Source of the DNA: Tubulanus polymorphus
Taxonomy: Eukaryota > Animalia > Nemertea
Length of the DNA: 64,000 bases
Assembly (NCBI RefSeq): GCF_964204645.1
Contig: NC_134027.1
Coordinates: 4,062,485-4,126,484, forward strand
Reading direction: 5' to 3'
Shown: positions 1 through 25,166 of the stretch, in pieces
Position numbering within the stretch: the stretch's first letter is position 1
Layout of the letters: the number at the start of each line of letters is the position of its first letter
The notes under the pieces: generated by a model
Told to the model about the DNA's origin: nothing
Seen by the model: the letters and a program-made list of their open reading frames with translations, nothing else
The model's database searches: none
Translations under genes and position numbers: made by a program

Positions 1-18
1 TGATGGTTTTATTTTCAG

Positions 19-1527
19 TCCAGGAAGGTCGATGAGGAAGTCACATGTGTCAAGTTCAGAATCAAGTCTCAATGGAAATTCAATGAAAGCTAGTTCTTCA
101 CTAACTAGATCAACATCTTTGGTAATATTTCTAAATATTTTTGGTCATATATGAAAAATGTATTTCTGGTCGTAAAATGCTATTTTGGAAATAAACGATG
201 TACGATTATCTATTACAGAAGAGACCGACTGGAATAAAATCTACAAATACTGCAATTGGTAATAGAATGAATGGGCTGGCTGTTGGTCGCAGTAAACCTT
301 TAAAAAATAATCAACCTGCAACATCGCATTCGGGACCAATCAAAGCTTTACATCCGTCATCAGTAACAAGCAGTACAGCAATGTGTGATAAAGGTAGGCT
401 AAAATGTACTCATATATTGCTATACAAAGGTTGATGTTTTGTTGTTTTTAGTTGAGCTATAAATGTGTATTATTTGTAAAGGAGCAATGAATTGCGGTGA
501 TAGAAATCGTCAGTGGAGTGGCAGTAGTACTAGTAGTGTCAGTAGTGTAAGCAGTCTTGGATCTTTAACGACACCCGTAAAACCTGATAGGTGTTTACAA
601 CCGAAAAAAATACTATCTTCATCTACATGTATCAACAACACTCGCATGCAACGACCAGCTTCTCGATCTAACAGGTACTGTATACGCTGTCTGATATAAT
701 CTGATATTCAATCTCGGAGGCATTAACTGATTAGTATGGAAAAAATCAGGCACATTTAATTGGTCCTAGCCATAGAACTATATGTAAATGGGAACACTGT
801 GTCGTCACTATATATTTGCCTTTGCGATCTTCGGAATTCATCAGCACCCTCGTGGTTAGCAATTAACGATAGATTCTCGGTTATAATAATATTTTCTCTG
901 CGGGCATTGAGGATACAGTTTTCGAGATTTGGTATAGTTTAAAGACTATAACAAATCATGAAAAATGCTAATTAAAAAAGAGACCGTTAACCAGTCAACA
1001 AAATGTATCACTTATCATGAGGGTGCTGAACAATCCACAAGATTACTGGCGGTGCCTAGTGTAGTTTTCCGGTTTTCTAGCTTGTTAATTAAACGATGAC
1101 TTCTCTTATTGTGTATTGTCTCATTGCAGTGGTTCTATTCCTCCATCTACCCCTGTATCTGCCTCAAAAAGACGTTCATTTTTACCAACACCCGGACGAC
1201 AATCGTCCGATAGAAAAACAACGGCGAGTCGAAGTGAAAGCTCGTCATCAGTCCAGTCTACTGATGAAAGTTTTGTCCTAAGGAGACCACCAACGCCTAG
1301 TCGAATAGTACCGGTATTTAATCACACAATTCACATCTTATATACGTCCATCATCAGAGATGCTTGAAATTACCCTCAATTTCCTTGTTGATCATTTTCA
1401 GCCCAAGAAATCAACGATACCTTCTGTCAATCCGGTAAATAGCAATAAAGAAAATGTATCTGTGACTGGATCGCATAAACCTTCGAAATTAGCAACGTTA
1501 CTGCGGAAACCGAGTATAAAAAGATGA
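19..1527 (+). CDS. 3' part (last 5 coding exons) of a Ser/Pro/Arg/Lys-rich disordered protein with SxIP-like motifs; possibly a GTSE1/PSRC1-type microtubule +TIP
   Basis: Exons 19-121, 219-393, 482-674, 1130-1313 and 1402-1527 are bounded by AG/GT with matching phases (0,1,2,0) and join into one frame ending ...KPSKLATLLRKPSIKR* (TGA 1525-1527). Motifs SFLPTP, STIP, SRIVP and KEN; AATAAA downstream. The family assignment is a guess from composition. Confidence 0.75.
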
Positions 1528-2074
1528 CAGCGACACCGAAGAAATGAATAAAAAAACTTTCTAAACACGCAATCCTTATTTGCATGATTCAAATGTTAAG
1601 AGTAAACAAAACTTTAAAATGTAAAAAATAATATGCGTATTCCATGTACACTAAACGGAAGTTTTGTCAATTATTTTAGATGTTTTTTGTAAATTAACTC
1701 TTTGTACTTAAACTGGAGAATGCATTCATTCACAGATCTGTTAATCAACCTATATAATGTGATAATAATAAAAAGTGCTAAATGTTGAACAAAATGTTAT
1801 GATTCCTTGTTATTCCTCTGTGGGATTCGACCTGATCTCCCTATCCACGAGCTAGCAGTTTCTCATGGATGCGATTAAAGATCTGTTTTGAGCTATCGGG
1901 TTCTCGAGGATAGGATTTAATACAAATGACAATAAAGTAAATTGAAATGCTTGTTACGAGGAGTGCGTAGAAATTGATTGATTTAGAGTAGATGGTGGCT
2001 GAAAAATCGTTTATTCCTAACCAGAAGTAAACACACAACTTCATGCCGTCGAGAGGCCAAGAAAGGAGCGAGAA

Positions 2075-4009
2075 ATGATTCTTTTAGGTAAATTGCCGTG
2101 AAATCTACGGATGGATGGAGTCTGGACGGTCAAGAAGATATCGATTCTTATTTATTCATTCTGTTTGAACTTTTTAGCCTGGCCCCTGAATGTTAACGGC
2201 CCGTAAAATGCTTAAATGGTAATCTTTTTTAGATCTGAGTGAAGTACATATTTTAGAATCTGCGTTGCGACATGCCCTACAACGCGATCAGTGTCAACAA
2301 CCGGATGACATCGACATCGGTTATATCCAATTAAGAGCTATCAGAAATGTTGGGGTTAATGAACAAGAGTTGTTGCATTGTATTAGAAATAACCAGGAGA
2401 TTTTAGATGAAATAGTTGTAAATGCTGATGATGATTGCTGGAGTAAGTGGTGCGCTAAAAAAGCTGCAGGTATGGTACAGTTTCAATTCCAACAAGGCTT
2501 GTTTTTTTAACGCGGAGTACAGCTTTTATTAGATAAAAAACAAAATGATAGAGTGAAAGGAAAGAAAATAGAAATAAGATCTTTCATCTCGGAAGGACTG
2601 TAGAAAAAAATTGAGGAGTGAAAATTGTTTAAAATTTAATTAAGATGGGAGAAACTAAGAATCATACAAATATCGTTATTTTATTTCTTGTTTCTAGTTA
2701 AAGTTAGGCAGAACATAAACCCAAAGACGCAGTCAAATCACTTGAACTCGATGACTGATGACATAGTAACGAGAATCAGTAACATTGTTGAATCAGCGGA
2801 TATATTTCCTGTTGACAGTAATTCAAATGATAGTCTTAAACGGATAACGCGAACAGAAACTGATAATGAAGATTTCTTCTACGTCGATGATGACAAAGAT
2901 GCTGATTTCGTTCCTAATGACGCGGAATGTCTTACGGATCAATCGTCAAATACGGATTTCGCTGAACCATCTACGTCTAGAAAACCGCCGGGTAAGTATA
3001 CCACCCTAAAACAAGTCTAATAAGGAGCATTCAAATACAGTATAAGACAGTGCAAGTCATATGTGATTGAATAACAATACTGAGTGAATATTCATCATCT
3101 CAAGAATATTGCCATTATTTCGTTTTAGATAATGGTGAAAAAAGTTCAGAAACAACAGATGGTGAAAACATTTCTTCTGGTGAGTGTGTAACAATTCAGA
3201 AATGTCACTTGTGCAGTCGGTTATTTCTTACAGATGAGGAGCTGATCGAACATTTTGCCTGTTTTCACGACGGCTTTTTACCGTTTAAATGTAACGTATG
3301 CGGTTCCGGTTATAACGTCCTCGAAGAGCTGGTCGTCCATCACGTAGAATATCATAGATCTGACGATAAACCGAAACCGACACTCGTATGTAGATTATGT
3401 GATGAAAATTTCGATGAAGATCGACGTTACATCGAACACTGCACCGATGAACATCCGCATGAAAACCCGCTCTCTTGTGGAAAATGCGACAAAGTAATTT
3501 CGTCTTTACATCAATTAAAGCGTCACCAAGTTTTACATTCGACTACGAAACGTTGGATCTGCGAGAAATGCGGCGTAGGATTCACACGTAAAGACGTGCT
3601 GAAAAATCACACGCGCGTAATACACGATAAACTGAAAACCGTCGAATGCGGTATTTGTAACCAGAAGTTTTCGAATCGATCTCAACTTACGTTACATACA
3701 CGCGTGCATACGCGTGAACGACCGTTCTCATGTACGGTCTGCGATCGCAGGTTCGCCGAGAAAGGTAAAATGACTAAACACATGCGAATTCATACGAATG
3801 AACGGAACTATCAGTGTTCATGGTGTGATAAACGATTCCGCGAGCATCCATTGTTGGTACGACATGAACGCACCCATACCGGAGACCGGCCTTTCAGTTG
3901 TGATATTTGTGGAATCGCGTTCTCTCGTAAAGACTCGCTTCTAGTTCATAAACGCGGCATTCATAAAGTATTTACTCATGGCGACTTATTGAAAAAAGAA
4001 CCTGGATAG
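2075..4009 (+). CDS. C2H2 zinc-finger protein, isoform A (shared exons plus read-through terminal exon, 9 fingers, ~474 aa)
   Basis: Exons 2075-2087, 2233-2469, 2698-2991 and 3129-4009, all phase-1 junctions with GT-AG; HTRERPFSC/HTGDRPFSC linkers; AATAAA near 4235. The first 13-nt exon and its ATG are the least certain part. Confidence 0.8.
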
Positions 4010-4328
4010 ATAGTCGATTGAATTTAATCGAACATATTTGACTCCTCTCTACTTTGTATAATGGTCAGCCAGTAAACTGTTGGTTTTGGTTTGAAATTTC
4101 TACTGGCACCTGTAGAATTTTTACCATTTGCAGCTTGCCCCATTTGTGTAAAATACTAATGATTGACATTATCTTAGTCTTCTTGAGAAATGAATCTACA
4201 ATTTCGTTTCTTTGTTCGCGAACATGTAAACATAAATAAATATGCATTGTATCAAATGGGTATATATTGTATTTTATGAATTTCTCTTCAGAACTCTCCA
4301 CAATATCTGATTTGGATGATTGTTTCAG

Positions 4329-5293
4329 GTTCAGGTGAAGAGTATACGCCTTCGAAACAGAGAAAAACGCGACTATCTACAGCTGGACGATCTAAACCGC
4401 GGCCTCCTCGTCGTAAAATCACAAAATATCTTCCGTTTGATTGTTGCGCTAACTGTCGATTGTGTTCGAAATCATTCGTATCCGAGGAAACGTTGAAAGA
4501 ACATTTTAGAATCATGCACAGTTCAGAACCTGTGTATTGGTGTGATATATGCGATATCGGAGACTTGGACTGGTCGTCTCAGGATTTAGTCGAGCATCGA
4601 GCGAACAAACATGACAGCGCTAGAGATACTAAGAGGAGAGGTCGACCGCCGCGAGTTGATTTTGATTTAACGTGTCGTTTATGCAGAAATGTACAATCCT
4701 CTCATGTAGCGTTGAAGGAACATTTTAAAATCTCTCATCCCGGTTTATCGGCGTATCAATGTCGGGAATGTAATAAATGCGTGACATCTTTTCGACAGTT
4801 GAAGTTTCACATGGCCAGTCATTCCGGGCACCGGCCTATTAAATGCAGCCATTGTGACTCTACGTTTGCATGCGAAAGCTCGATGCAAGCTCACTTTAAA
4901 CGTCGACATAATCCTGAAAGAGAGCGTCGTTGGATTTGTCACAAATGCGGCCTGGCTTTTTACGAACGCGTAACGATGCAGTCTCATTTAGCTTTACACA
5001 CGAATATACGTTATCCGTGTGATATCTGCGGAGCGAAACTTTCCAGTAAAGGACACGTCAAAAAGCACATCGCGTCCATACACCGCGGTGAAAAACATCA
5101 TCGTTGTCCCGAATGCGGTCAGCGTTTCTTTGAACTAGCGGCTCTTCGTCAACATCGACGCGTACATTCCGGAGAGAAACCTTTCAGTTGTGATATCTGT
5201 CAACATCGATTCGCGCGTTCTGATATGGTTCTGGTTCATAAACGCTTGGTTCATAAGTTGATTATTCCAAAACGAAGCGAAAAATTGTACTGA
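4329..5293 (+). CDS. Alternative terminal zinc-finger exon B (9 C2H2 fingers plus AT-hook KRRGRPPR)
   Basis: Acceptor gattgtttcAG (4327-4328) opens the 325-aa ORF in phase 1; HSGEKPFSC linker; stop at 5293; AATAAA 5882-5887. Confidence 0.8.
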
Positions 5294-5459
5294 ATATACC
5301 GGTACTTCTTATATGTTATATTGGCATTCATTTATAACTGCGCAGTACAGACTTTTCAGGAAAAAAGATGTAAGGGCAAATGTAAAAAGTGCATCTGTAC
5401 TCCAAGTGATTAAAAAGCCCAAGTATTTCTAGATGTTTTGTTTTTGTGATATCACTACA

Positions 5460-5785
5460 CAGGGTCCCTACAACTCCTTGATTCCTTGAAAATCCTTCTA
5501 AACAAAAAATATTTTTCAAGGTACTTGAATATGCTTGAATGTGAGCAAAATGCCCAAAAGTCCTTGAAAATTCCTTGAATTTTGAGAAATTGGCTCTTTT
5601 TTTGGCTCTGGGTCTACTTATCATATACACAGAATTCCACCGAATTAAATGGTTTACTGAGAAAAACAGTACTGAATTAGGAGGTGTCAACAGTAATTGA
5701 GATATGAAAGGGATACAGACACTACTCGAAATTTTCTCCTTGAAAAGTCCTTGAATTCTGGAATGACTGCTATGTAGGGACCCTG
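5460..5785. mobile_element. Non-autonomous DNA transposon (MITE), 326 bp, 5-bp TSD; hAT5-like
   Basis: TIR CAGGGTCCCTACA (5460-5472) / TGTAGGGACCCTG (5773-5785); CTACA duplicated at 5455-5459 and 5786-5790; internal TCCTTGAA repeats. The superfamily is inferred from the CAG ends and the 5-bp TSD. Confidence 0.85.
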
Positions 5786-5967
5786 CTACAGTACATTGTA
5801 CAAATACGATGTGATTTGGTCATCAGATGATTGTTTGAAAATGAATGTCAAATTACGTACATGTATTCATCTTTAGTAGTGAATAAAAGTACTATTTTTT
5901 ACTTGGTCGTGAAAAATATGTTTAATGTTATTGGGAGTATAGTTGTTGTGATGGTTTTTATTTTCAG

Positions 5968-7658
5968 ACTGGTCTAAAATGGAACATCCACAAAAACGAT
6001 TAAAACTGACGAATTCTGAAAAAACAAACGATTCGGAACTCATCGAAGCCGATATTGGAGCTGCTGGTGATCACAAGTTGGATCTCGATGTGGATGACTT
6101 GATCGGAAATGATTTAGATTTGAGGCCATTACTATCGGATATTGTTGATGAAAATAATGATTTTGAAAATTTAAGGACGTTTGAAAACAATCAAAAACAA
6201 GCGCAGAAAAAAGTGAATTTAGAATGTCGTTTGTGTCTGGATGAGTTTTCAACTCACGGAGATTTCAGAAATCACTTTCGCACAACTCATCCTCAGACGA
6301 AGCCGTATATGTGCACTACGTGTGGTGATGTATTCTCATATGAACAGTGTTTGGAATTTCATATAGAAAAACAGCACAACAGCGACAAACCTGATGGGTG
6401 GATCAAGCCAGAAATTAATTGCGCGTATGAACTTGTTTGTAGAATATGCAATGAAATTGGAGATATAAAAAGTCATTTTGATCTAGTTAAACATTTTGAA
6501 AAGGAGCACCCAACTTTGTTTCCATATTTGTGCATTATTTGTGGTGTCTGTTTCCCGGGTTTTAGTAGACTACAAATTCATTTACAAGATGTTCATGAAT
6601 GTGAAGTTTATACAGCAAGCGATGATATTACTGAATCATGCCGGAGTGATAAGCAATTATCAGTCGATTATTGTGCGGATATAGTTTGTCACATTTGCGG
6701 AGAACTCTCATGCAATCCGCTCAGTCTAGCGAAACACTTTAAGATAAAACACGGTGCGTGGAAACCTTTCATTTGTGTCATCTGTGAAATCACTTTCAGT
6801 TCTCTTTCAAAGTTAAGAGGTCACCAACTAAAAGAGCATGCAGTCAATAAGGTGGAATATGACGAAGACGTTGTTAAGAAAAAGAATTTCCCAGAAGTAC
6901 CCGCTTACAGACTGTATTGTCAGGAGTGTAATATCAATTTAGAAAAACATATTCCTTATATTGAACACTTTCGAACATATCACGGAGAAGAACGACCTTA
7001 TTCCTGTCGCGATTGCAACCAGAAAATGAAGACTTTGTCGGCGTTGAATTATCATTATCGAGTGAAACATTTAAACTATTCGATGTTTACTTGTGACGTC
7101 TGCCAGAAACCGATGCGAAATTCGCAGCTTTTAGAACTTCACAAATTAACTCATCTCGATCGAAAAACTCGCAAATCGTTACATCGTTTTATGTGTTCCG
7201 ATTGCGGAGCTGCGTTCGAACGCAAGAGTTTACTCGATTCGCACATCCGCAGCAAACACACGAATGAAGTGACTGATGTGTGCGACGTATGCGGGAAAGT
7301 GTTTTACAATAAAGAAAATCATCGAACGCACATGAAATTCCACGCCGGAATTAAGAAATATAACTGTAATATTTGCGATAAAAGATTTGTAACTTCGTCG
7401 ATGTTGACGCGCCATTTAACGGTTCATAAATCGAAGAAATCGCATCAATGTCCCGTGTGTCTGAAATGGTTTGCGAGGAACGATTCGATGAAAGCTCATT
7501 GTCGTTCATTTCACAGACTAGAAATTTTACAAACATCGACCGCATCAAATACTGCTTCATTCACGTGTGATATCTGTATGGAAACATTCCCGACTAAGTC
7601 CATCCTCGATGTACATTTTACGAAACATTTAACTGAAGAAATTGGAATCGAAAAATGA
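5968..7658 (+). CDS. Alternative terminal zinc-finger exon C (~14 C2H2 fingers)
   Basis: Acceptor tttattttcAG (5966-5967); G|AC TGG TCT AAA ATG is phase 1 and in frame with the 559-aa ORF; stop at 7658. Confidence 0.8.
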
Positions 7659-7770
7659 GCTTTTGGTACCTATTTGAGAATGGTCAATGTGTGTTATTAA
7701 TCCACCCGAATTCGTTACACTAGTGTCGTACGTGTTCCTGTGATTTAAAAAAAAGGATCTCTTTTTACAG

Positions 7771-8558
7771 ATTTCCTGAACGCGGCAGACCCGCCAAAAG
7801 AAGTTGTACATGCCGCAAAACGACCCAACAGAAATCGGACGGTTAAAAAGACCAACAAACGACTTGTTGGTAGACCTTCCACAGGAGGCTACGAACTGAT
7901 CTGCAGGTTATGTCAGACCGAACACCTTCAACATAAAGCTTATCGTGAACACTTCAAAATCGAACATCCAGGATTTAGACCTTATTTTTGTGAGCAATGC
8001 GATAAAGCATATGCCTTGTACACTCAATACAGGATACATTGTCGCACGAAGCATATTACAGTCTCCGATAAAATGTACGCTTGTGATCTGTGTGACAAAT
8101 GGTTTATTCAACCTTCTAGTTTGAAACTTCACCAACAAGTGCATCTAAGTGACGAATTAAAAACGCAACTAAAGCGTCACGTTTGTACAATTTGTAACAA
8201 AAAGTTTCGGAGTAGTTCGATGTTAAAAGTGCACGTTATGACTCATACCGGTGAACGTAATGCTATTTGTAATATTTGCGGTCTCGCAACTCGTACTCAG
8301 ACTTTACTCAAATTCCACATGAAAATCCATTCTCAGGAAAAAGATCACAAGTGCCATGTTTGCGGTAGAGGGTTCGTTCAGCCGGGTACTATGAAACGAC
8401 ACCTGCTTTCGCACACCAAACAACGACCGCATCAGTGCGATATGTGTGAAAAACGATTCGCGCGAAAAGACGCTCTTAGAAATCATAGGAAGTCGATACA
8501 CAAATGCGACAATGTTTGTGGTAACAAATCTTTGAGTATAATTTTGCAGAATTCCTGA
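7771..8558 (+). CDS. Alternative terminal zinc-finger exon D (7 C2H2 fingers)
   Basis: Acceptor ctctttttacAG (7769-7770); G|AT TTC CTG... is phase 1 and stays open into ORF 8016-8558 (DFLNAADPPKEVV...YELICRLC...). There is no in-frame ATG until after the first two fingers, so an upstream exon is required. Confidence 0.8.
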
Positions 8559-8945
8559 TGCTGCTTTTGGTACTTGTATATATTGTATACATAGCGAAAA
8601 CTTAATGAATCGAAAAAAAAGTTGCGTTTATGATAGCTGTTCTTATTATGTAAAAATGTATAAAATTGTTCACGCATGTAAACACTTTGCGGTTGTTTAT
8701 ATTTAGATAATAAGAATAATTAAGAGCTATAGGTTACGTTGTATTATTTTATCTGCATTTCATAGTAATAATATAGATTCCAGCGCAATCGAATCTACTA
8801 ATGGTGATGTTGGATGTTCACGAAGAAAACTCGAAGGACCCCTCAATCTATATAGACTGTTTAATATTCCAGAAAATAAACGCGCGATTTTCTCAGAATA
8901 TCCTCTTATTTCAGTCATACGCCCACCATCAACCATCCAACCACA

Positions 8946-9674
8946 TTAAGTGAAGCACGACCACTGAGTCTCCTTCAACCGTGATGACCACGACCGCTTG
9001 TATTCCGCTTTCAAAAACGAATTCTCGTGCGGATTGAATTTCGGATTTGAATAGGCGATGTAACAAGGCGCTGAAGGCATTGGGCATTCGGCAAAAACCT
9101 TCATTTCCGGCATCCTGAATACTATCGGTGACGCCGATTTCAATTCCCAATCTCGCGTTTTCTGAGATCCGTTCCAAGCATAACTAGACATGATTCCGCA
9201 TGTTCTCTTTACGTCCGGGCCCCAAACTCTGCGAGCGTCTGCACCTTGCGCTTCTTTTTTGTACAGTCTCCGTAGTAATCGTTTCTGGTCTTCAAGTTTC
9301 CACGAATCGTGTTTTTCACCTTTAAATCTTCCCGGTGAAATATTCGGGATTAGATTAAACTTCAGCGATTTGCGGCTCTGCCCTTCGACGACGGGCGAAT
9401 CTTGGTCCTTGAATTTACGATTAACTCGTTGTTGGCTGGAGACGGTTGGACGATTGTGTCTTTGAACGACAATCGGCAGTTCATCCGGAGTAAACTTTCT
9501 CTCCATCATATCATCATCATCGTCTATCATCAGTTTACCATTTCTCATGCGACGCCTTCGTCTCTTCTTGGCCATGTCAGCCCGAGCCTCTGCCCTGGCC
9601 ATTTCCGCAATATCTTTGGTCTGTGTTTCAAATTCAGATTCATGCTGGTCACTTTCTTCTTTTATATGTTCCAT
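8946..9674 (-). CDS. Uncharacterised 242-aa protein (basic KKRRRRR stretch, poly-Asp)
   Basis: Long ORF in more GC-rich sequence, head-to-head with GMPR; no recognisable domain. A possible acceptor ttAG just upstream means it may have a further 5' exon. Confidence 0.5.
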   Translation of the reverse strand: MEHIKEESDQHESEFETQTKDIAEMARAEARADMAKKRRRRRMRNGKLMIDDDDDMMERKFTPDELPIVVQRHNRPTVSSQQRVNRKFKDQDSPVVEGQSRKSLKFNLIPNISPGRFKGEKHDSWKLEDQKRLLRRLYKKEAQGADARRVWGPDVKRTCGIMSSYAWNGSQKTRDWELKSASPIVFRMPEMKVFAECPMPSAPCYIAYSNPKFNPHENSFLKAEYKRSWSSRLKETQWSCFT

Positions 9675-10258
9675 CCTTAGATCGACGTCTCCTGGGTTCT
9701 AAGTCGTAACTATTGCGTTCGTAGAATATAATAGTTCAAATTAAAGAAACACATCCATAAGTTTCGACGACTAAACCATTCGTCATGTTTGTATTTGTTG
9801 ATTGTCGTTTGGACTTTTAATTCCCACAGCTCAACCCGATTCTCACGCTGCTTTTATAAACGGCATAAAAAGACACTTTTAGTAAGAAACGGCAACCACC
9901 CGCACGACTTCTTTTGTGCCGGGAGTTCCACATGTTTGATATCAGCACGTAAACTTGTCCATGTTATCAGGAACCTCAGTCGACCAAGCAACATTCCGCA
10001 GGTTTAATTTTGTCTGGGCTGGAACCATTCGTTACAACCGTTAAGCAAGAACGCTCGAAGACGGAGGCGCCGGGGAGCGCGGGTCGCAATGGCTGGCGTC
10101 ACGCGGGTTTTTGGCGTCTCGTCGTGCTGCATCACTTTTAATACACCATATCGTTTTGCACCATAAGACGCCGCCGTTATGTTCATCCATACCATGGCCT
10201 CTCAAGAATCCATGATCGGGTTCATGGTTCATCTAACGATTTCTTATGCTATACCGTG

Positions 10259-10448: not shown

Positions 10449-12586
<2,138 letters not shown>

Positions 12587-21196: not shown

Positions 21197-24100
21197 ATGC
21201 CTGTCGATTTTGATGAGATGCCCGTCGATTTTGATGAGATGAAGGTAAATTTAAGAAAAATAAATTCAATCATTTTTTATTGCCTTTTCATTTCTCTTTG
21301 TATAAGAAAAGGCTGAAATTCAAACGGTTTTCTTTGATTTTTAGATGGAAGAATCAAATAATAAGCGGAAAAAAGGTTTCAACTTTGGCCACGGCAGGAA
21401 AAAGAAAAAGTTTGCTGATAAAATGAAGAGCATGAGTGAGTAATAGGCGGCTAGGCCCTATACAGACTGCATGAATTACAACTTTTGGCCCATAAAATGT
21501 ATGATAACTATTGTTAATTCACAAAATAAGTCTGCGGTTACATGACCTTACCGACCTGAACCTTCAGTTGCAACCATTTGGCTACAGCAATATAGCCAAG
21601 GACCCAATTTCATTCCATTCCCGAGGTATGTCATGTAATTGCAGATACTTTGTTAAAGAGTAAAGAGGTTTTCGCTGCAGAAATACATTAAGACTTGTTC
21701 AGAAAGAGATTTCAATTTCCGTATCCCAGTGTTAACCTCTGATCTTGATGCTGTTTCATTGTTCGAGACCATATTTTGTATGAAAATGTTTCTTTTTTTG
21801 TGGAATAAAGTGGAGTATAATTATCATTTAAATTGTAACTCTTCTGCATTCTTTTTCTTGTTAGTTTGTTTTTCTTTCGTCATCGTTTGATAGTCAAAAG
21901 CTTGCTCAACCCGGATGAGTTTATTCCAGAATTAGGCCAAAATATGTGTGTAAACCTGGTTCAGTCGGAATAATTAGGGATATACTATCCGATTGGTGCA
22001 AATTTGACTGTACAACGAACGTGTCGGCATTCACATCCAGGAAATCGGGTTACCTACTCAATTTTTTGACGGGACCAAAATTTACTGCGGCATGTATTGA
22101 TTCATTCGATCATGATTTGCTGAACACAAACTGGAACAATTTCATAGGACAAATGCCCCCAGTAAGCAGGATCTACTGTTTCACCAATCCAAGAGGACCA
22201 AAGACTAGCCTGGAGTGAAAATACAAAATCAGAATAACCAAGCCATAGATAGTGTATACATGTATGATAATATTTATTTTGCCCTAAAAATTTACAACAT
22301 TTCACTATATACAACGGAGCAACGCAAAGACTGTAAGTACATTATTGCCTCATTCTTTCATTTTTGTTAAGTTTAGATTAAAGGTTATTACTAATAAACA
22401 CCCAATTAAGAAATAAAAAAAATAATACTGTCTTAATAATTTGACAAACAGTACAACGTTTAATCATTCATAACATCCAAGATAAGTGCAAAAATCAATA
22501 AATATCAAACATTGAAATTTTGGAACAAAATTAAATATACAAACATTTAAGTAATGCTCGCTTTATAACCTGATTTGTTGATAGGATCGTGTATCGGTAG
22601 TCGTAACAGCGCTAAATCAGATGAGAGTACCAGCGAATCCCTCGAGCTAAGTGCAATATCATCAGCATCAACTACTATCAATCCCGTTGACTCAGATATT
22701 GCAGAACCAGAGTCATCTTATGAGATATCGTATCAGTCTAGTTCAACTCCTAAAAAACAGCCAGCGCCGCCATCCATTTCCCAAGAAAATGTAGATTTAA
22801 AGGAAAAAGTGCGTCAGCTGGAGCAGGAACTTCAAACTATCAAATGTATCCAACAGAACAAAAATACGCTGATCATCTGTGATGGAGACGAAGACAAAAC
22901 AATTTTCAGAGCTCGAAATACATATAAATCGAAATCCCGAGACAACTACAACTATTTCATCAAATTAGATGAGCCGAAGATACAATCCTTAGATGCTGGT
23001 GAAAAAACTCTTGAGAAGCGAGCATCCCTGTTGAAACTTATAATCCAATTCATCTCCAAAGATAAAGACCAATCAATTGAAAATGCTGCCAAAACAATAT
23101 CGTACTTATTAAGAAAAGACACATCCATTAAAGAAAAGGTTATTTCCCATATTCCCGATATGAAACCAGCGCGGATGCTCACTGCTCAAGAGTACCTTGA
23201 AATCAAAATGCATCTTCGACTGACAATGACCCAGTCTTTGGAACTAGGAAAACTTTTACGACTGTACAATATCAATATTTTGCCATCAGCTGACAAACTG
23301 CGCGAGGAAATTAACAGTCGATCTGAAGCTTTAAAAAACAATCTTGATGTAGGTCAAGCCGAAATGATTGTAAATTCGAGAACCTCGGAGAGAAAAACAA
23401 CTGCGTACGCTAAAGTGAATAGTTTCCGTGTTCAGTTACTTGTAAAAATTAAACGTTTGTCTGAAAAAGGTCAACTGTTGTTTCCTGCAGAGGTTCATGG
23501 TGAAATATGGATTAAGATTGGGGCGGACAAGGGGGGAGGTAGTACGAAACTTGTATTTTCAATTATCAACTGTAAATTGTGCAATAGTACAGACTTTACA
23601 GAGATGATCGCGTATTTTGAAGCTGTAGATTCATATGAGAATATGGAGCAGGTTTTCTCACCAATATTTGATGAGATGAAGACTATCTCTAGTGTAGATA
23701 TTGTAAATAGTGATGGAAAATATGTAGCCGTCGCGATCCGTTTTTTTCTATTTGGTGACCTTGCCTTTTTGTGCACATGTATGGGTCACCAGGGTTCAAC
23801 GGCCAAATTTCCTTGTTTGTGGTGTCAAGTGAAGCTGGATGACCTAAGAAAGCACCACGGCTCACCACATTGTCCACAATCGGTGAAATTTGAATCTCGA
23901 TCAGTTGCCCTCTATAAACAGAATGTAGCAAATCCAGGTGCTAATAATTTAAGTGTAGTGAAAGCTCAGATGTTTCACCTACAGGATATCGATCATTTAG
24001 TTCCTCCTGGACTTCATATCTCCCTGGGACTTGGCTTACTATTTTTCAACATGTTAGAAAAAAAATGTCAAGAATTTGACAACGAATCTTTGGGGGAACG

Positions 24101-25166
24101 TGATGAAACACTTTACAGAACCTGGCAAGAAATTTCAACAAAAACATCGGAAGTCCAAGAGGAACTAAATGATCTTTCAAGTCGTATTGATACGAAATGC
24201 AAATACTTACAGAAACTCACTACTGCTAATAGACGTGGTCGATGTGTTGTTTCGTGTACATCGAAAATTTGTCTAATAAGGACAATTGAGAATCCAAATC
24301 CGAATCGGTATATATATTGTATCAAATGTGACGCTCCGTACCATGAGCAGTGTATCGAAGATTGTCCAGATTTTCAGTGTGAACTATGCCTTACAGGAAA
24401 ACAATTGTCGGCCAACAAAATCATCAGATGCATCACTGAAAATCTGGCCAACCTTAAATCCAGACAAGTTGAGTTAAAAAAGGAATTCCAAAAGAAATCA
24501 AGTGAGTTAAATGCTGTGTACAGTAAAGTTCAGGCCCAAATGGGACCTTTATGTAAGACATTAAATCAAGTCCTGATAGAAATCGGCGTTGATCGTCAAG
24601 CGTATCATAGCAATAGTTTTGTAGGGAATCATATTCACAAGTTGCTAAACAACGCGGAAAAATTATGCAAAGTGATTCCCGACGAATCGATTAGTTCCTT
24701 GTTCCAAGAGTTGTTCGAACGACTACGTTCGCTATATCGATTATACAGCGCATCTCGGTTTCTTTCTAAAGACGAGATATCCAATATGACAACACAATGC
24801 CACGATTTTGGCCGCTTTTTTACGTCTAAATTTCCCAATGTAAATATCACTCCGAAAATCCATATTCTAGTATACCATGTTCCCGAATTTGTAAATATGT
24901 GGGGAACACTTGGCTTGTTCAGCGAGCAAGCTCTTGAAAGCAAACACGCTAGTGTCAATCGAGATAATCGGACATTTTGCAGCATACGCGACAATGTTTT
25001 ACGCTCCAAACTTCTCTTCCAAAACCAGGCCTTGTATGCGACGAAAACATTAGAGCAACCGGCGTCTGTTCCACGTAAATGCAGTTGCGGCGGTTTCTAT
25101 AAGAAGTGTCTAGCCGATGGAAAATCTGTAAAGAAATGTAAATCGTGTCAGAAAATTGCCGAATGA
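21197..25166 (+). CDS. RAG1/Transib/Chapaev-type DDE transposase with internal PHD finger; predicted 3 exons, ~906 aa
   Basis: Exons 21197-21244 (phase 0), 21345-21435 (donor A|GTGAGT, phase 1) and 22585-25166 (acceptor ttgatAG, phase 1) total 2721 nt. Likely catalytic D in IKIGADKGGG (23526), D in FGDLAFL (23757) and E in SEQALESKH (24936). C-x2-C in FPCLWC and H-x4-H in TPKIHILVYH; also PPGLHISLG. Confidence 0.88.

What the first reader, a model, noticed from the sequence alone, without database searches (positions are those of the whole stretch)
2075..8558. One gene, four interchangeable zinc-finger arrays: a lola/mod(mdg4)-style variable-exon system without BTB
Seen: shared exons 2075-2087, 2233-2469, 2698-2991 and 3129-3179 end in phase-1 donors (G|GTAAGT at 2992; G|GTGAGT at 3180). 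Reading through the 3180 donor gives ZF array A. The three downstream arrays each start at a pyrimidine-rich AG that is phase 1 and in frame (4329, 5968, 7771), and each has its own stop. D lies only ~112 bp after C's stop and has no usable ATG, so it is hard to explain as a separate gene. Predicted isoforms are ~474/519/761/460 aa with 9/9/14/7 fingers. Known: Drosophila lola, broad, fruitless and mod(mdg4) join a constant BTB N-terminus to alternative DNA-binding exons. Inference: an independent origin of the same 'constant head + variable DNA-reader' design, with multi-finger arrays that automated annotation would probably split into separate genes.
Basis: partly seen in the sequence, partly recalled or inferred. 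Interest (0 to 1): 0.85.

Follow-up and report, generated by a model that had tools for sequence, protein, structure and literature searches.

The report
Ribbon-worm gene, four swappable zinc-finger ends
A ribbon-worm gene joins one unnamed front part to three, and likely four, different long zinc-finger ends, so it likely makes several regulators that read different DNA sites, the design of the fly gene lola built from unrelated parts.

Summary
The anatomy is real. All four head exons end in phase 1, and the four tails give 474/519/761/460-aa proteins with 9/9/14/7 C2H2 fingers. The gene is Tubulanus polymorphus (Nemertea) LOC141901926. Spliced contigs of one run show the three head introns, read-through into A and the 3179->4329 (B) join. 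NCBI models head+B and head+C letter for letter as predicted. Head+D was not seen anywhere. It is inferred from an intact in-phase frame, a used acceptor and 3 of 3 synonymous variants. (2) C has no poly(A) hexamer before D and is spliced onto D from donors 7 and 30 nt after its stop, so D also serves as C's 3' UTR. The 115-aa head module has no Pfam or PDB match and only one relative, a paralog with a B-like tail. It works like lola but is not a lola/BTB gene. The scan's earlier notes describe the same BTB-less design, with far more tails, in a probable annelid and a sea urchin.

The parts
1980..2087 (+). Exon 1 (5' UTR from at least 1980; start codon 2075). It holds two short upstream ORFs, 1992-2030 and 2043-2078; the second stops on the main ATG (ATGA overlap).
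   Evidence: Spliced contig of run X2 begins at 1980 (a contig end is not a mapped start); uORFs
2233..2469 (+). Exon 2, core of the unnamed, probably helical head module
   Evidence: Joints 2087/2233 and 2469/2698 in X2; 43% identity to the paralog over this exon; no Pfam family
2698..2991 (+). Exon 3: end of the conserved head module (to about residue 119), then an acidic linker
   Evidence: Joint 2991/3129 in X2; alignment with the paralog
3129..3179 (+). Exon 4, last shared exon; phase-1 donor CTG|GTGAGT is the switch point
3180..4009 (+). Tail A: 9 C2H2 fingers reached by not using the exon-4 donor; AATAAA at 4235
   Evidence: X2 contig 3140-4228 crosses the donor unspliced; frame and hexamer; no matching protein record found
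4329..5293 (+). Tail B: 9 fingers, counterpart of the paralog's only annotated tail
   Evidence: Joint 3179->4329, GT..AG, 39 letters on the short side; equals XP_074645608.1; 51% identity to the paralog's tail core
5460..5785 (.). High-copy miniature inverted-repeat element between B and C, with 26-nt terminal inverted repeats and a 5-bp flanking duplication
   Evidence: (summed contig depth over 2000 in X1)
5968..7658 (+). Tail C: 14 fingers. The exon continues to donors at 7665 or 7688, so it is an internal exon carrying a stop.
   Evidence: Head+C equals XP_074645606.1/607.1; joints 7665->7771 and 7688->7771; 8 of 9 variant codons synonymous
7771..8558 (+). Tail D: 7 fingers. Acceptor is used in RNA. 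It is the 3' UTR of C transcripts and likely a coding exon when spliced straight to exon 4.
   Evidence: Acceptor use and X2 contig 7779-8619; intact frame and 3 of 3 variants synonymous; join to exon 4 not seen

Best explanation
One ribbon-worm gene splices a shared 198-residue head to zinc-finger tail B, reads it through into tail A, is modelled by NCBI as joined to tail C, and likely also joins it to tail D, which would give four transcription factors predicted to bind different DNA sites. Shown: exons 1-4 are spliced together; the exon-4 donor is either left unused (A) or joined to 4329 (B); and C is spliced onto D after its stop. Taken from NCBI's models: exon 4 to 5968 (C). Inferred: exon 4 to 7771 (D), which skips C as a cassette. 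Inferred control: two layers act at one donor. Early 3'-end formation (AATAAA 4235 for A, a site near or past the MITE for B) competes with splicing onward. Among long transcripts, acceptor 5968 versus 7771 decides between C and D, which share one distal 3' end. The two UTR donors lie 7 and 30 nt after C's stop, inside the roughly 50-nt window that usually spares a message from nonsense-mediated decay (rule recalled). The head's conserved 115 residues are likely a protein-interaction or effector module playing the part that BTB plays in lola. The tails differ at their recognition-helix residues and likely supply different DNA specificities.
For: Phases, frames and stops. Run X2 is fully spliced at 3 of 3 head introns, holds one contig across the exon-4 donor into A, and holds one contig joining 3179 to 4329. 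NCBI proteins XP_074645608.1 (519 aa) and XP_074645606.1/607.1 (761 aa) of one locus equal the predicted head+B and head+C products. D: its acceptor is used (2 joints) and is in phase with exon 4; its frame is intact with 7 fingers; 3 of 3 listed variants are synonymous (p about 0.018 given the base changes). C: 8 of 9 variant codons synonymous (p about 5e-5). The loose-end table (6 rows, none hidden) has no row at 4329, 5968 or 7771. The head module is 45% identical to a paralog, while the linker aligns poorly. Recognition residues differ between the arrays.
Against: Neither exon 4->C nor exon 4->D appears among the 6 joints. No head+D or head+A protein was found, no stand-alone D protein of 147-471 aa, and 0 of 8 exact look-ups of stand-alone tail frames hit. 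The 7665 donor keeps C's frame into D across the TGA, which fits a read-through or formerly fused C-D protein. A's variants are 3 of 6 non-synonymous (p about 0.24 for its synonymous share). The RNA evidence is assembled contigs of one run from one study, not molecules. I did not see the transcript support behind NCBI's C model. The variant test used only displayed rows (28 rows were hidden). DNA binding and the head's function are untested; both structure models are low confidence (mean pLDDT 48 and 44).
Confidence: 0.72

Rival explanations
1. Three tails plus a C-D unit. D is reached only through C: as a non-coding 3' UTR, as a 21-finger protein made by read-through of C's TGA on the 7665->7771 splice form, or as the relic of a once-fused C-D coding exon pair cut by a recent stop.
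For: Both joints seen at 7771 come from C's UTR. Donor 7665 is phase 1 in C's frame, so C runs in frame into D across the stop. No head+D protein was found. C and D group together in a 5-sequence tree (support 77).
Against: A phase match has a 1 in 3 chance, and the second donor (7688) is out of frame. The 7665 donor is the weakest here (3 of 7 consensus positions against 5-6 for the four head donors), as expected of a cryptic site. No variant at the stop is listed in the contigs that cover it. The base after TGA is G, not the leaky C (context recalled). D begins with its own finger-free linker, as B and C do.
Confidence: 0.16
2. A is not a working isoform but intron read-through ended early, or a decaying tail.
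For: No head+A protein record. 3 of 6 variants change a residue.
Against: The frame is intact with 9 fingers. The X2 contig covers A while none is laid on the head introns or on 4229-4327 (bookkeeping; holes in this data set are weak evidence). AATAAA lies at 4235. None of the three changes hits a zinc ligand (read).
Confidence: 0.07
3. C and/or D are separate genes with their own promoter or spliced leader, and the joins to the head are occasional read-through.
For: C has an in-frame ATG 11 nt after its acceptor (5979). No exon 4->C contig was laid. The tails are no closer to each other (31-35%) than to unrelated finger proteins.
Against: NCBI models head+C as isoform X1. No loose ends at the acceptors. 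No stand-alone record from 5979 or 8073. D's first ATG would drop two fingers.
Confidence: 0.05

Closest known systems
Drosophila longitudinals lacking (lola)
   Same: Constant N-terminal exons joined to alternative 3' exons that carry different zinc fingers: 20 isoforms, 17 with a distinct finger motif (10.1101/132027, passages; PMC11426971, passages).
   Different: No BTB in the head; TTK-type BTB is reported as arthropod-specific. Only 4 tails, but each has 7-14 fingers. One tail is a read-through of the last shared exon, and one doubles as another's 3' UTR. lola uses cis- and trans-splicing; trans-splicing is untested here.
Drosophila mod(mdg4); tramtrack, broad, fruitless
   Same: One constant head with several DNA-binding ends. 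mod(mdg4) has at least 30 isoforms (passages). Tramtrack's two spliced forms seen in a search listing only; broad and fruitless recalled.
   Different: BTB heads; mod(mdg4) ends are mostly FLYWCH domains; these genes have few fingers per isoform (recalled).
Lineage-specific effector + poly-C2H2 families (ZAD-ZNF of insects, KRAB-ZNF of tetrapods)
   Same: Small N-terminal module, low-complexity linker and long finger array, restricted to one lineage (PMC4327956, passages).
   Different: Those families expand by duplicating whole genes. Here several arrays share one head. The head matches neither ZAD nor KRAB in Pfam. Cases of KRAB exons splicing to a neighbour's finger exon are recalled; I could not check them (paper not held).
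Paralog LOC141901195 of T. polymorphus (XP_074644406.1)
   Same: Same head module (45%) and a B-type 9-finger tail (51% over the core); its record lies on a contig of the same length, 27,807,848.
   Different: One annotated protein with no isoform label. Whether it has unannotated further tails could not be checked (no genome held).

Membership tests
lola / Tramtrack-group BTB-ZF genes | N-terminal TTK-type BTB domain | tested here: not met
   No Pfam family for exons 2 and 3 at E<=1, none for the whole 119-aa head at E<=10; no PDB match below E 1.4
lola / Tramtrack-group BTB-ZF genes | Arthropod host | tested here: not met
   Identical proteins are from Tubulanus polymorphus, Nemertea; group described as arthropod-specific
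lola-like architecture (works-like) | Constant 5' coding exons joined to alternative, in-phase 3' coding exons | tested here: met
   A read-through and B join in RNA contigs; B and C in NCBI isoforms; D inferred only
lola-like architecture (works-like) | Alternative exons encode different DNA-binding-type domains | tested here: met
   C2H2 arrays 31-35% identical, with different recognition residues; binding itself not assayed
lola-like architecture (works-like) | Each variable exon is terminal, with its own 3' end | tested here: not met
   C has no poly(A) hexamer in 7659-7770 and is spliced onto D; A, B and D have candidate hexamers
lola / mod(mdg4) | Trans-splicing between separately started pre-mRNAs | not testable with these tools
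   Only contigs were available; no allele-phased reads
lola-like architecture (works-like) | Isoform-specific expression and function | not testable with these tools
   One spliced run of unknown tissue; contig depth cannot rank parts of a gene
ZAD-ZNF / KRAB-ZNF | ZAD or KRAB domain at the N-terminus | tested here: not met
   No such Pfam hit in the head or in the paralog

The most novel reading that the evidence does not exclude
An independent, nemertean origin of the lola design on a previously undescribed 115-residue effector module, with whole 7-14-finger arrays as the swappable parts. It has a compact switch in which one exon (D) is the coding tail of one isoform and the decay-safe 3' UTR of another. 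Together with the BTB-less cases this scan noted in a probable annelid and a sea urchin, it would mean that 'one head, many DNA readers' is a recurrent alternative to gene-family expansion across bilaterians, and that annotation undercounts such tails.
Probability: 0.55. Interest if true: 0.65.

Novelty: new variant of a known kind. Interest (0 to 1): 0.5.

Why it matters
The constant-head, variable-finger design is described mainly for arthropod BTB genes. A case on an unrelated orphan head in a spiralian points to convergence. It also shows a second way, besides KRAB- or ZAD-style gene duplication, to expand long C2H2 arrays. In practice, two intact arrays (A and D) have no protein record that I could find, so finger repertoires of such genomes may be undercounted. 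Against high interest: two of the four isoforms are already in NCBI's automatic annotation, there are only four tails, no function is known, and the scan's own notes describe much larger versions in other animals.

Tried and rejected
Genome-wide work: no genome is held, so sister loci and the paralog's surroundings could not be read.

RNA labels: no listed holder is on record as RNA. X2 is treated as RNA only because it is spliced at GT..AG ends; X1, X3 and X4 showed no such joints among the rows displayed.

Missing exon 4->C and exon 4->D contigs: not used as evidence of absence. X2 also has holes at 5827-5995 and at 6202-6207 inside C's open frame (bookkeeping), so short records drop out.

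Depth: D (51.5) is deeper than C (15.6-18.7), but contig depth cannot rank parts of a gene and 3' bias could give this. Not used.

Head identity: Pfam (one sub-significant Tip-alpha match, E 0.004, for the paralog only), PDB sequences (best E 1.4) and ESM Atlas (no feature hit, structure rows all under the bar) gave nothing. AlphaFold models were too poor for a fold search, so none was run. P0043 (E 8e-4) is a bacterial coiled-coil repeat protein and was rejected as chance.

Common origin of the tails by exon duplication: suggested by a shared seven-finger register ending in an F[AS]RxD finger in all four tails and the paralog. Their mutual scores (94-125 bits) are no higher than those with unrelated finger proteins (90-125), so this stays unproven.

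Docking/selector pairing: none stood out among the 25 longest of 56 inverted repeats (no shuffle control).

Chain-of-linkers route: B and NCBI's C join exon 4 directly.

Literature: 9 searches. Judged from listings only, none showed this gene or a BTB-less case in Spiralia; subscription papers are not covered. No supplements were read.
Full report
1. Observation. The four head exons (2075-2087, 2233-2469, 2698-2991, 3129-3179) each end in phase 1 and encode 198 residues. Continuing at 3180, 4329, 5968 or 7771 gives 474, 519, 761 and 460 aa; shifting any of these by one base closes the frame early. A strict C2H2 pattern finds 37 fingers here and one stray match in the remaining window. With atypical spacing allowed the counts are 9, 9, 14 and 7. 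Pfam confirms C2H2 families in all four tails and none in head exons 2 and 3. D's frame is far longer than chance (261 codons against a maximum of 153 in 2000 shuffles).

2. Identity. Exon 2 matches two NCBI proteins at 100%: Tubulanus polymorphus LOC141901926 isoform X2 (XP_074645608.1, 519 aa) and X1 (XP_074645606.1 and 607.1, 761 aa). The species is a palaeonemertean ribbon worm. These proteins are letter for letter the predicted head+B and head+C products. So annotation did not split the locus. No head+A or head+D protein appeared in three head searches, no stand-alone D of 147-471 aa among 39 hits, and 0 of 8 stand-alone tail frames were in the collection. X1 has two accessions for one protein. 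That would fit two 3' UTR forms, which is my inference.

3. Transcript evidence. Five runs were listed, four holding the stretch, all from one study and none on record as RNA. Run X2 is spliced. One 680-nt contig runs 1980-3169 across all three head introns at the predicted ends. A contig 3140-4228 crosses the exon-4 donor into A. A 1201-nt contig joins 3179 to 4329 with GT..AG ends and 39 letters on the short side. The complete joint table for X2 has 6 rows: three head introns, exon 4->B, 7665->7771 and 7688->7771. D's acceptor is therefore real, but the joins seen come from C's 3' UTR, 7 and 30 nt after its stop. No poly(A) hexamer lies between C's stop and D. This is weak as a negative, because X2 also lacks records at 5827-5995 and at 6202-6207 inside C, and NCBI's exon 4->C join is missing from the contigs too. 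No loose end suggests a spliced leader at any acceptor (6 rows, all in the MITE). These are contigs of one run, not molecules.

4. Are the tails under constraint? I classed the 21 coding differences displayed; 28 further rows were hidden, and one search's 16 rows for X2 are complete. Synonymous: D 3 of 3 (p about 0.018 given the base changes), C 8 of 9 codons (p about 5e-5), B 1 of 1, A 3 of 6 (p about 0.24), exon 3 0 of 1. D behaves like translated sequence, although its only in-frame ATG before the later fingers (8073) would drop two fingers. The simplest route to translation is exon 4->7771, which is in phase. The main alternative is that the 7665 splice keeps C's frame into D across the TGA, allowing a 21-finger read-through product or marking an old fusion. 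The 7665 donor is weak (3 of 7 consensus positions), and the 7688 donor is stronger (5 of 7) but out of frame.

5. The head. A search of 1.84 billion representatives with exon 2 gave 4 hits: the two isoforms, a paralog (LOC141901195, 539 aa, E 1.7e-7) and a bacterial coiled-coil repeat that I rejected. A two-sequence profile found only the same three worm proteins among 3456 candidates. The first 119 residues are 45% identical to the paralog; the acidic linker behind them aligns poorly. The module has no Pfam, PDB or Atlas assignment. AlphaFold suggests helices at low confidence. It is therefore a constrained, lineage-restricted module of unknown kind; an interaction or effector role is inferred by analogy with BTB, ZAD and KRAB.

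6. History. The paralog's tail is the counterpart of B (51% over a seven-finger core), while A, B, C and D are 31-35% identical to one another. The tails therefore look older than the split of the two heads. Either the paralog lost or hides other tails, or A, C and D came from neighbouring genes that lost their heads. All five arrays share a register ending in an F[AS]RxD finger, which suggests tandem duplication. Their scores against each other are no better than against unrelated finger proteins, so this is not established.

7. Mechanism. The best reading (0.72) is one promoter near 1980 and one switch donor at 3179. Leaving the donor unused and ending near AATAAA 4235 gives A. Splicing to 4329 gives B. 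Longer transcripts choose 5968 (C, with D as spliced 3' UTR) or 7771 (D). A, B and C-to-D splicing are shown in contigs, C rests on NCBI's model, and D, the 3' ends, regulation and DNA binding are inferred. At least three tails on one head: about 0.93. Rivals: D reached only through C (0.16), A non-functional (0.07), separate genes (0.05).

8. Comparison. lola joins a constant BTB to variable exons, with 20 isoforms, 17 of them with a distinct finger motif (10.1101/132027, passages). mod(mdg4) has at least 30 isoforms, and the TTK-type BTB is arthropod-specific (PMC11426971, passages). This gene works like lola but fails membership: no BTB, not an arthropod, long arrays, and C is not a terminal exon. 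Its protein layout resembles ZAD- and KRAB-finger proteins (PMC4327956, passages) without those domains. Nine searches (listings only) showed no description of this gene or of a BTB-less spiralian case; subscription literature is not covered. The scan's own unchecked notes report the same design in a probable annelid (up to 87 ends) and a sea urchin. No note resembles this head or locus in sequence.

9. Verdict. A real feature and a new variant of a known kind; interest 0.5. It is a sound case of convergence with an undescribed head module and an unusual C/D coupling. It is tempered by the existing annotation of two isoforms, the small number of tails and the unseen D join.

Noticed in passing
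window 5460-5785: High-copy MITE between tails B and C with CAGGG-starting terminal inverted repeats and a 5-bp target duplication (hAT-like by recall). B's RNA contig runs into it, so it may supply or border B's 3' end.
   Followed up: partly
window 4329-4340: B's acceptor is followed by GT, and six bases on by a donor-like CAG|GTGAAG (5 of 7 consensus positions, phase 1). This could act as a recursive site or a 6-nt micro-exon; no join from it was seen.
   Followed up: partly
window 1992-2078: Two upstream ORFs (12 and 11 codons) in the 5' UTR; the second ends on a TGA that overlaps the main ATG, which could tune translation.
   Followed up: no
window 4560-4660 (B): An RGRPP AT-hook-like motif between fingers 2 and 3 of tail B is kept in the paralog; the motif name is recalled.
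   Followed up: no
window 1-1530 (+): End of an upstream multi-exon gene for a Ser/Thr/Pro-rich protein; it stops about 450 nt before the zinc-finger gene's first exon.
   Followed up: no
window 8949-9698 (-): Convergent neighbour with a 250-codon charged frame and no Pfam match; its RNA contig reaches 8726, about 100 nt from D's contig end.
   Followed up: no
window 10452-12585 (+): Multi-exon gene that reads by eye as GMP reductase (recalled, not searched).
   Followed up: no
window 22569-25163 (+): Intronless 865-codon frame with DUF1280 (E 1.6e-22), possibly part of a mobile element.
   Followed up: no
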